This document shows positions 22,353-24,184 of a stretch of DNA of 48,435 nucleotides, piece by piece; position 1 is the first letter of the stretch, and every line of letters begins with the position of its first letter. Source of the stretch: Eledone cirrhosa. Its lineage: Eukaryota. A model generated the notes under the pieces. It had not been told where the DNA came from. It searched no databases and saw nothing but the letters and a program-made list of their open reading frames with translations. The stretch spans positions 1-48,435 of the forward strand of contig CAXHJY010000033.1 of the NCBI GenBank assembly GCA_964016885.1, written 5' to 3'. The translations under genes were made by a program, and so were the position numbers.

Positions 22353-22713
22353 TGAATAAAACTAAATGATGTAATAATTATTGTTCATTTTTCCTTTACC
22401 ACCGTTATTTTTCTTCGTCTCTATTTTTATATATATATATATATATATATATATATAAATATATATATAGATGTAAGTATATATATATAAATATATATAT
22501 AGATGTATGTATGTACGTCTGTATACATATATGTATGTACATACATATATGTATACAGACGTACAGTAGCATGCATATTTATATATATATATACATATAT
22601 ATACATACAGGTACACTGAACTCACTCAATATGCAAATTAGGCTGCTCAGCCGTTAATTTTCATAAGGAAAGTATATACTTTCGAACGTTCAACCATCTG
22701 GCAGAAGGGTATA

Positions 22714-22754
22714 CGGTGCTGATGATAGCTAACAAGCTTGAAACTAGTACATCG
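22714..22754 (+). ncRNA. Type I minimal hammerhead (family C unit 1)
   Basis: CGGTG-CTGATGA-T AGCT aaca AGCT T-GAAAC TA GTA-CATCG. Confidence 0.85.
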
Positions 22755-23200
22755 TTCCTGTGTCAGTGTTGAACAAAAAGTTGACGTGGTTGCCTTAACA
22801 CCGTACGGCATAAATTCAGGCTGTCAGTTTGTTTACAAACGGACAAAGCGGGCGTTATAATAAACGTCCACTAAACTGATACGTACATATATGTATGTGT
22901 ACCTGTATGTATATATATATATATATATATATATATATATATATATATATATATATATATGCATGCTACTGTACGTCTGTATACATATATGTATGTACTT
23001 ATACATACATACTTACATTTAAGTAAGTGCCGTACTAAGAGTGAGAAATGAAATTTCGTTTTCATTTTATTACAACTTATCGTTTTCGGTGCGCCTGGCC
23101 GACTGAACTCACTCCATATGCAAATTAGGCTGCTCAGCCGTTAATTTTCATAAGGAAAGTATATACTTTCTAACGTTCATCCATCTGGCAGAAGGGTATA

Positions 23201-23240
23201 CGGTGCTGATGATAGCAAAGAAGCTTGAAACTAGTACATC
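23201..23240 (+). ncRNA. Type I minimal hammerhead (family C unit 2)
   Basis: CGGTG-CTGATGA-TAGC..GCTT-GAAACTAGTA-CATC. Confidence 0.8.
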
Positions 23241-23659
23241 TTTCCTGTGTCAGTGTTGAACAAAAAGGTGACGTGGTTGCCTTAACACCGTACGGCATAA
23301 ATTCAGGCTGTCAGTTTGTTTACAAACGGACAAAGCGGGCGTTATAATAAACGTTCGCTAAACTGATACGTACATATATGTATGTGTAACTGTATGTATA
23401 TATATGTATATATATATATGCATGCTACTGTACATCTGTATACATATATGTATGTACGTATACATACATACTTACATTTAAGTAAGTGCCGTACTAAGAG
23501 TGAGAAATGAAATTTCGTTTTCATTTAATTACAACTTATCGTTTTCAGTGCGCCTGGCCGACTGAACTCACTCGATATGCAAATTAGGCTGCTCAGCCGT
23601 TAATTTTCATAAGGAAAGTATATACTTTCGAACGTTCAACCATCTGGTAGATGGGTATG

Positions 23660-23700
23660 CGGTGCTGATGATAGCTAAGAAGCTTGAAACTAGTACATCG
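23660..23700 (+). ncRNA. Type I minimal hammerhead (family C unit 3)
   Basis: CGGTG-CTGATGA-TAGCT aaga AGCTT-GAAACTAGTA-CATCG. Confidence 0.85.
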
Positions 23701-24184
23701 TTCCTGTGTCAGTGTTGAACAAAAAGGTGACGTGGTTGCCTTAACACTGTACGGCATAAATTCAGGCTTTGTTTACAAACGGACAAAGCGGGCGTTATAA
23801 TAAACGTCCGCTAAACTGATACGTACATATATGTATGTGTACCTGTATGTATATATATGTATATATATATATATATATATATATATATATATATGCATGC
23901 TACTGTACGTCTGTATACATATATGTATGTACGTATACATACATACTTACATTTAAGTAAGTGCCGTACTAAGAGTGAGAAATGAAATTTCGTTTTCATT
24001 TTATTTCAACTTATATATATATATATATATATATATATATATATATATATATATATATATATATATATATATATGTGCGTGTGTGTGTGTGTGTGTGTGT
24101 GTGTGTGTGTGTGTATAAATAAATATATATATAAGAAAAGAAACGAACAAAAATATCGGTGGTAAAAGAAAAATGAACGATAAC

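What the first reader, a model, noticed from the sequence alone, without database searches (positions are those of the whole stretch)
22500..24011. Retrozyme-like trimer predicted to release 487- and 459-nt monomers or circles
Three head-to-tail units each have an intact minimal hammerhead with palindromic ACTAGT stem III, so adjacent units could form the double hammerhead. Diverged monomers at 12518 and 44745 show dispersal. Each unit carries an internal variable (TA)n and TATG-rich tracts, so the element may spread its own target microsatellite (inference).
Basis: partly seen in the sequence, partly recalled or inferred. Interest (0 to 1): 0.75.

Follow-up and report, generated by a model that had tools for sequence, protein, structure and literature searches.

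The report
Self-promoted hammerhead retrozyme, Penelope-type insertion
This is one of many thousand copies of a protein-free 460-base repeat that carries a self-cutting RNA motif and a likely small-nuclear-RNA-type promoter; its ends match those of a Penelope jumping gene in the same animal genome, which likely copies it, probably from a small RNA circle, but no RNA has been seen.

Summary
The array is real and is a new member of a known class, the animal non-LTR retrozymes. Three type I hammerhead cores lie 487 and 459 nt apart; 11,161 exact hammerhead matches occur genome-wide, so it is not a local duplication. In 66 loci, 90 of 93 3' ends fall at two sites about 62 nt apart, and 22 of 25 inverted pairs have one of each. 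A young autonomous Penelope-like element (fragment at 10219-10968) shows the same rule with a 60-nt offset, though its sequence is unrelated. 125 of 127 copies run through the cleavage site, so a cut linear monomer was not the template. Each unit holds a conserved octamer-TCAG-TATA block resembling the host's snRNA promoters. The ribozyme has canonical rather than minimal geometry, and the middle one has two weakened stems. Cleavage, circles and transcription are untested. The element supplies few of the genome's TA tracts. The scan has noted this system before, on other DNA of this genome and in other genomes.

The parts
22428..22470 (.). left (TA)n target flank
22471..22616 (-). inverted, 5'-truncated arm (monomer positions about 146-241, with a local 24-nt fold-back); ends at the 'short' 3' site ACTTACAT; joined to the forward arm by a 2-nt overlap at 22615-22616
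   Evidence: read from the sequence
22615..24014 (+). forward arm: partial unit (m325-459), 487-nt unit, 459-nt unit, partial unit (m1-303) ending at the 'long' 3' site CAACTTAT
22630..22680 (+). promoter-like block 1 (TATGCAAATTAG, TCAGC, GTATATAC); predicted start near 22703-22704
   Evidence: function inferred
22700..22764 (+). type I hammerhead 1 with extended helix I; predicted cut after 22749
22750..23236 (+). predicted 487-nt monomer (cut to cut)
22906..22960 (.). internal (TA)n of unit 1, apex of a long TATG/CATA hairpin
23117..23167 (+). promoter-like block 2
23187..23251 (+). type I hammerhead 2; core intact, helix II (23217) and helix I (23241) each lose a pair; predicted cut after 23236
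23237..23695 (+). predicted 459-nt monomer; used as the coordinate system m1-m459
23576..23626 (+). promoter-like block 3
23646..23710 (+). type I hammerhead 3; predicted cut after 23695
23846..23894 (.). internal (TA)n of the last unit
23953..24014 (+). 62-nt 'tail' between the short and the long 3' end, present on this arm only
   Evidence: counted on the sequence
24015..24074 (.). right (TA)n target flank
12518..12862 (-). 5'-truncated copy of the older subfamily (GTT site, helix II mismatch, long end), between TA tracts
44749..45016 (-). decayed partial copy of the older subfamily
9808..10968 (-). 3' fragment of a young autonomous Penelope-like element (endonuclease part, 3' UTR, own hammerhead near 10009, short end on (TA)n): candidate helper family, not homologous to the repeat; left end approximate

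Best explanation
The array is one insertion of an abundant, protein-free hammerhead repeat (a non-LTR retrozyme) that sits as two head-to-head arms in a TA microsatellite and was likely copied there by the reverse transcriptase-endonuclease of a Penelope-like element, probably from a unit-length circular RNA. Shown: copy number, two fixed 3' ends about 62 nt apart, one of each per inverted pair, variable 5' ends, continuity across the cleavage site, identical units in young arrays, conservation of the ribozyme helices and core. Inferred: (1) an internal snRNA-type promoter with the spacing of the host's U1/U2 genes starts RNA polymerase II about 46 nt before a cleavage site; (2) read-through of two or more units lets two hammerheads pair through ACUAGU and cut at GUA; (3) a host ligase closes the monomer; (4) the Penelope enzyme nicks (TA)n, primes on both target strands at the two fixed sites, where UAU can pair with the target, copies round the circle for a variable distance, and the two cDNAs are joined by microhomology. 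Only loci with at least two hammerheads could be sources; this one qualifies in layout but is not among the youngest, and its middle ribozyme is weakened.
For: 11,161 and 13,373 exact pattern matches, controls 0. 66 loci on contig C1: 90 of 93 3' ends in two classes (43 short, m234-250; 47 long, m289-303), 73 of 93 with a TA-rich flank, 22 of 25 inverted pairs short plus long (22 of 23 classifiable, p 2.9e-6). The autonomous element has two ends 60 nt apart on (TA)n and 5 of 6 inverted pairs short plus long; 150 scored copies are 96-100% identical in protein. PMC8557442 (passages) gives an inverted 5'-truncated copy, a one-sided tail and (TA)n bias as Penelope traits. 125 of 127 copies continue upstream across the cut site. 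Units differ 2.8% within loci (143 pairs) and 6.0% between (7,607 pairs); L105 has 4 identical units across both arms, L146 identical arms with the nearest outside unit 5 changes away. In the 9 hammerhead haplotypes seen in 3 or more loci, 11 core positions are invariant, helix changes are one-sided G.U/A-U or G-C/G.U, and N7, loop 2 and position 17 vary. Promoter: octamer block at -76 to -78 in 3 of 7 unlinked U6 loci displayed; TCA(G/A)T at -56 to -58 with a TATA-like box at -28 to -31 in 7 of 7 U1/U2 loci; the repeat has TCAGC 26 nt before TATA; block differs 2 of 53 between subfamilies against 47 of 360 elsewhere (p 0.03).
Against: No step at the RNA level is shown. An uncut linear multimer from a homogeneous young array would leave the same DNA pattern as a circle. 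The autonomous element shares no sequence with the repeat, other Penelope families were not surveyed, and its tail length is only similar (60 against 62 and 60 nt). The active double-hammerhead fold is 6.6-8.8 kcal/mol above the free minimum. Similar ribozymes are often weak: PLE motifs cut little in vitro (PMC4209133), and 8 of 9 Xenopus dimers did not cut (10.64898/2026.07.22.740005). Some arrays are mosaic: window unit 1 carries two alleles common in other subfamilies, L131 shares one variant between 2 of 7 units, L135 between 3 of 5, so local duplication or conversion also acts. The promoter block is a hybrid (U6-like octamer, U1/U2-like spacing, TCAGC instead of TCAGT), was chosen after seeing the motif, and U1/U2 genes lack the octamer. 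Rfam gives only 17.6 bits to Hammerhead_HH9, far below its 52-bit cut-off.
Confidence: 0.62

Rival explanations
1. Same element and same Penelope-type helper, but the template is an uncut linear multi-unit transcript; the hammerhead cuts rarely or only trims the RNA, and no circle is part of the cycle.
For: 125 of 127 copies cross the cut site, which an uncut precursor also explains. Low in vitro activity of related motifs. The active fold is not the minimum. Autonomous copies with a tail after the downstream repeat exist (L183, L184, L186), so linear tailed templates are possible.
Against: Arrays of 4-7 near-identical units with locus-private variants in both arms (L105, L131) imply repeated passage through one monomer sequence. 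Core and helices are kept across subfamilies that differ 18% elsewhere. Circles were shown for coral, mussel and axolotl retrozymes (PMC7229834).
Confidence: 0.24
2. The unit is the terminal repeat (pseudo-LTR) of an autonomous Penelope-like element that was not found; arrays are truncated by-products of its transposition rather than an independent element.
For: Same end rule and target as the autonomous element; retrozymes are reported to derive from such repeats (10.64898/2026.07.22.740005).
Against: In loci of both subfamilies the sequence after the long end leads straight back into the unit through the same junction, not into a reading frame; the one autonomous family examined is unrelated. 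No search for a rare homologous parent was possible.
Confidence: 0.09
3. A local tandem duplication or satellite made by unequal crossover, with a chance or dead hammerhead.
For: The three window units differ by 8-10 of 255 nt, and some arrays show shared variants between neighbours.
Against: More than 11,000 exact matches across contigs, fixed 3' ends, inverted arms and TA targets; structure-keeping variation in the ribozyme.
Confidence: 0.02

Closest known systems
Metazoan non-LTR retrozymes (Cervera and de la Pena 2020, PMC7229834, parts 1-4 of 6 read; Li, Clavereau and Pollet 2026, 10.64898/2026.07.22.740005, parts 1-3 of 5 read)
   Same: Non-coding tandem units with a type I hammerhead, GC under 45% (35-37%), dispersed in thousands, co-occurring with Penelope-like elements, highly paired predicted circle.
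   Different: Unit 459-510 nt, above the 170-400 nt expressed examples but inside the 51-972 nt range of the preprint; internal (TA)n; two-armed insertions with two fixed ends, not described in the parts read; expression not shown here.
Axolotl HHR_Amex1 and HHR_Amex2 (PMC7229834)
   Same: U.U at the base of helix II (Amex2) and a very short palindromic helix III (Amex1); these cut 6% and 22% as monomers and better as dimers.
   Different: Here both weakening features occur in one motif; the site is GUA (GUU in the older subfamily); loop-loop contacts were not tested.
Penelope-like elements with C-terminal GIY-YIG endonuclease and CX2-5CxxC linker (Neptune/Nematis type; Craig et al. 2021, PMC8557442, passages only; Cervera and de la Pena 2014, PMC4209133, parts 1-2 of 4 read)
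   Same: Inverted 5'-truncated arm, one-sided tail, (TA)n targets, partial tandems, hammerhead upstream of the 3' end.
   Different: No reading frame; tail about 60 nt rather than 30-40; hammerhead lacks the minimal-type features (long helix II, extra base after A9, G10.1-C11.1).
Newt satellite 2 (Coats, Zhang and Epstein 1994; paper not held; known here only from a passage and the reference list of PMC2220036)
   Same: Hammerhead tandem repeat with an internal snRNA-type promoter used by RNA polymerase II.
   Different: Here the promoter is predicted from likeness to the host's own U1, U2 and U6 upstream regions and is untested; the host is an octopus-like mollusc by protein homology.

Membership tests
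Type I hammerhead ribozyme | Core CUGANGA, GAAA, UH with helices I-III, helix I open | tested here: met
   11 core positions invariant, 6-bp helix I, 4-bp helix II, GUA site; Rfam HH9 aligns over the model but at 17.6 bits, below the 52-bit cut-off.
Type I hammerhead ribozyme | Site-specific self-cleavage | not testable with these tools
   Folding only.
Type I hammerhead ribozyme (canonical metazoan) | Tertiary contacts between loops 1 and 2 | not tested
   A UAU bulge after 6 bp of helix I and an AANA loop 2 are present; no comparison with known contacts was run.
PLE minimal hammerhead (PMC4209133) | Helix II 7-8 bp, helix I 4-5 bp, extra base between 9 and 10.1, G10.1-C11.1 | tested here: not met
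   4-bp helix II, 6-bp helix I, U.U in all 9 common haplotypes. Only the palindromic helix III is shared.
Metazoan non-LTR retrozyme | Tandem units of a few hundred bases, each with a type I hammerhead, low GC | tested here: met
Metazoan non-LTR retrozyme | No protein coded, no LTR | tested here: met
   No frame of 120 codons or more inside 22615-24000; no terminal direct repeats other than the units. PBS and PPT were not searched.
Metazoan non-LTR retrozyme | Dispersed, mobile copies | tested here: met
Metazoan non-LTR retrozyme | Expressed as linear and circular monomer RNA | not testable with these tools
   No RNA data were available to test it.
Penelope-like element (non-autonomous) | 5' truncation, inverted 5' arm, one-sided tail, (TA)n target | tested here: met
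Penelope-like element (autonomous) | RT and GIY-YIG endonuclease frame | tested here: not met
   The repeat has none; such a frame lies in a separate family.
Derivative of a Penelope pseudo-LTR | Sequence homology to the terminal repeat of an autonomous element | tested here: inconclusive
   None to the one family examined (30 loci); other families not surveyed.
snRNA-type promoter | Proximal element and TATA-like box at the host's spacing | tested here: inconclusive
   Octamer block as in 3 of 7 U6 loci displayed; TCAG-to-TATA 26 nt as in U1/U2 (26-28), RNase P 32-34; one mismatch in the TCAGT core.
snRNA-type promoter | Drives transcription | not testable with these tools
   Needs 5' RACE or a reporter.

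The most novel reading that the evidence does not exclude
A self-sufficient RNA parasite of a Penelope element: each unit carries its own snRNA-type polymerase II promoter and a dimer-only hammerhead, makes a 460-510 nt circle, and is copied by a sequence-unrelated Penelope enzyme that primes on both target strands at two sites a fixed 60 nt apart, so that the spacing is a property of the enzyme, shared with its own RNA.
Probability: 0.35. Interest if true: 0.75.

Novelty: new member of a known kind. Interest (0 to 1): 0.48.

Why it matters
That Penelope-like elements carry animal retrozymes through circular RNA has been proposed since 2014-2020 and argued from co-occurrence and homology in 2026; the parts of those papers read here show no insertion-level evidence. 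This family gives a measurable footprint: two fixed ends about 60 nt apart, one per arm, shared with a young autonomous element of unrelated sequence whose long frames are intact in the same genome. That makes helper, template and priming sites directly testable in vitro. The internal promoter-like block would explain how a protein-free repeat is transcribed wherever it lands and would extend the newt satellite 2 layout to molluscs. The locus itself is an ordinary, somewhat aged copy.

Tried and rejected
RNA evidence: no RNA holder listed; three runs of unrecorded kind from one sample, held as contigs, were laid and cannot show starts, ends or expression. In one search identical contigs cover 23221-23265, which includes unit 2's helix I change, at depth about 280-330; no listed contig spans 23217, which decides nothing. 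Whether unit 2's changes are real is open: unit-private changes have 79 transitions to 132 transversions, a flat spectrum that may include assembly error. Cut linear monomer as template: rejected, only 2 of 127 copies end between the anchor and the cut site. Pile-up at the predicted start: 6 ends at m409-416, no larger than clusters at m339 and m283-288, so not used. RNA-editing scars (lead from e1-8803865): not reproduced in 92 loci, A>G against T>C 21:31 private, 2:2 shared, 6:8 single; the internal TA tract and variants seen in more than 2 loci were not included. Polymerase III transcription: disfavoured, 19 of 74 read-through units have a run of 7 or more T. Self-nesting in the internal (TA)n: 16 of 161 flagged flanks were read by eye and none was a clear case. 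Homology to the autonomous element: none. Pfam and solved-structure searches did not recognise the autonomous frame; it was identified from motifs by eye and from homologues. Rfam miRNA hits are microsatellite noise; 55 of its 205 rows were not shown. Newt papers PMC308520 and PMC361788 are not held. Literature searches for an earlier description: 'octopus' + 'hammerhead ribozyme', 'retrozyme' + 'snRNA promoter' (0 papers), 'cephalopod' + 'Penelope' + 'retrozyme'; none listed this family. Supplements of PMC8557442, PMC7229834, PMC4209133 and the preprint were not seen and may list cephalopod elements.

Full report
Observation. The window holds three hammerhead cores on the + strand at 22719, 23206 and 23665. 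The predicted cuts after GTA at 22749, 23236 and 23695 are 487 and 459 nt apart; the length difference lies mostly in the internal (TA)n. I number the 459-nt monomer 23237-23695 as m1-m459. The forward arm runs from 22615 (m325) to 24014 (m303). Left of it lies an inverted arm, about 22471-22616 (m146-241, with a local fold-back), joined by a 2-nt overlap. Both outer ends abut (TA)n. The copies at 12518 and 44745 are minus-strand, 5'-truncated members of an older subfamily with a GTT site and broken helix II.

The ribozyme. Helix I is ACGGUG/CAUCGU, extended past a UAU bulge; helix II is AGCU/AGCU closed by U.U; helix III is the palindrome ACUAGU. These are the canonical metazoan sizes, not the minimal PLE type (PMC4209133, parts 1-2 of 4 read). 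U.U at the base of helix II occurs in axolotl HHR_Amex2, which cut 22% as a monomer and better as a dimer (PMC7229834, parts 1-4 of 6 read); GUA sites occur in natural hammerheads (PMC1636495, passages). Among 171 locus-haplotypes (99 distinct; the pattern allowed 3 mismatches), the 9 seen in 3 or more loci keep 11 core positions and all pairs of helices I and II; changes are one-sided, and N7, loop 2 and position 17 vary. Rfam gives only a weak HH9 match (17.6 bits, cut-off 52). A 1-bp helix III costs 5.4 kcal/mol in a monomer, the ACUAGU duplex gains 4.8; constrained double-hammerhead folds of the two window dimers lie 6.6 and 8.8 kcal/mol above the free minimum. Unit 2 loses one pair in helix II and one in helix I, each seen in 1 of 60 loci. 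The monomers folded as circles are 70% and 66% paired, z -8.2 and -7.1 against 40 shuffles, much of it from the TA/TATG hairpin.

The family. The genome has 3.0 Gb; the 40 best-scored candidates of 2,676 are 97-98% identical over the full query. Exact patterns match 11,161 times (hammerhead), 13,373 (downstream 30-mer) and 7,236 (promoter block), controls 0. I parsed 66 loci from contig C1, taken from the first listed matches, a few of them picked because they were arrays. Of 93 3' ends found (2 loci gave none), 43 lie at m234-250, 47 at m289-303 and 3 elsewhere; 73 have a TA-rich flank; of 25 inverted pairs 22 have one short and one long end, 1 two long ends, 2 a degraded end (p 2.9e-6 on 23). 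The window's insertion obeys the rule. The offset is 62 nt in the young and 60 nt in the older subfamily (counted). 5' ends are scattered, and 125 of 127 copies anchored at m12-41 continue upstream across the cut site. Units differ 2.8% within loci and 6.0% between (125 units, 60 loci, 12 of the input loci chosen by closeness to the window). Young arrays are identical or nearly so across both arms (L105, L131, L146); the window's units differ by 8-10 of 255 nt. Mosaic patterns in the window, L117, L131 and L135 show that conversion or local duplication also acts.

The likely helper. A frame at 10219-10968 (minus) has a CX4CXXC linker and a GIY-YIG-like motif by eye. Its family has 39,724 first-look candidates; 150 scored copies are 96-100% identical. 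Full copies have a frame of about 1,240 codons between two hammerhead-bearing terminal repeats. Pfam and PDB searches did not name it; the best named homologue is an Octopus vulgaris RT-domain protein at 69%, whose Atlas neighbours carry RVT_1, HTH_animal and GIY-YIG. Its ends lie on (TA)n at two sites 60 nt apart (22 short, 17 long, 7 internal), and 5 of 6 inverted pairs are short plus long. It shares no sequence with the repeat. An inverted 5'-truncated copy, a one-sided tail of 30-40 bp and TA bias are described Penelope traits (PMC8557442, passages). The footprint therefore points to a Penelope enzyme; that it is this family is inference.

The promoter-like block. Each unit has TATGCAAATTAG, then TCAGC, then GTATATAC at -119, -103 and -77 from the cut. 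Three unlinked U6 loci have TATGC(A/T)AAT(T/G)AG at -76 to -78 and TATA at -30; four other U6-like loci displayed lack it, three of them with microsatellite or TA-rich flanks, and 10 of 14 further hits did not match my start pattern. Seven of seven U1/U2 loci have TCA(G/A)T at -56 to -58 and a TATA-like box 26-28 nt later; RNase P has 32-34. The repeat's 26 nt fits the U1/U2 spacing and predicts a start about 46 nt before the cut, at the foot of extended helix I. The block differs at 2 of 53 positions between subfamilies against 47 of 360 elsewhere (p 0.03, region chosen after seeing the motif). Runs of 7 or more T in 19 of 74 read-through units argue against polymerase III. Newt satellite 2 is reported to use an snRNA-type promoter (passage in PMC2220036; original not held).

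Mechanism. Most likely an internal promoter drives read-through of two or more units, paired hammerheads cut out a monomer, a host ligase closes it (as shown in vitro with RtcB for axolotl and mussel), and a Penelope enzyme primes on both strands of a nicked (TA)n at the two fixed sites and copies round the circle. The DNA cannot separate a circle from an uncut homogeneous multimer, which is the main rival. Related dimers often fail to cut in vitro (8 of 9 in the preprint, parts 1-3 of 5 read).

The microsatellite claim. The longest pure internal (TA)n ranges from 2 to 48 units, median 10; 47 units reach 10 or more (93 measured, 6 long outliers set aside); three carry a foreign insertion (L073, L109, L141). 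Only 2 of the window's 60 such tracts lie in the array. The element supplies landing sites but is a minor source.

Verdict. A new member of the animal non-LTR retrozymes that works like a non-autonomous Penelope element. The class and the proposed cycle are in print; the searches named under Tried and rejected listed no paper on this family, its two-end rule or its promoter, and supplements were not seen. Earlier notes of this scan describe the same system on other DNA; they are not counted as support. Interest 0.48.

Noticed in passing
window 9808-10968, minus: 3' fragment of a very young autonomous Penelope-like family with its own type I hammerhead (near 10009); about 39,700 first-look candidates, open frames over 1,200 codons elsewhere.
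   Followed up: yes
window 41975-42045 (+) and 47757-47827 (-): A second hammerhead family, also with U.U at the base of helix II but with a 4-bp helix III; two diverged copies.
   Followed up: no
window 917-1110: Inverted pair of CTGATGA...GAAA motifs (924 minus, 1060 plus) forming a 150-nt hairpin, head-to-head like the Penelope-type arms; helices I and III not evident.
   Followed up: no
window about 24150-27500: GC-rich broken reverse-transcriptase element right of the array (RVT_1, E 4.5e-5 at 24962-25666); unrelated to the repeat as far as seen.
   Followed up: partly
window 35187-35843: Frame fragment resembling the C-terminal endonuclease region of a non-LTR retrotransposon by eye (recalled motif; no Pfam hit).
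   Followed up: no
L187, L188, L189 (U6); L199, L202, L236 (U2); L211-L216 (U1); L221 (RNase P): The host's U6 genes have an octamer block at about -77 instead of the TCAGT element found at -57 in U1/U2 and at -66 in RNase P.
   Followed up: partly
L117 (G000:C1:43087500-43093500): Array of at least 10 diverged units in which one unit of the inverted arm is nearly identical to one unit of the other arm (2 changes against 8-25), probably gene conversion between arms.
   Followed up: partly
L006 5' flank: A repeat array sits in the (TA)n next to an end of the autonomous Penelope-like family, so both use the same tracts.
   Followed up: no
L222, L223, L226, L227: U6 copies without promoter, mostly flanked by TA or other microsatellite, possibly retrocopies made by the same TA-targeting enzymes.
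   Followed up: no
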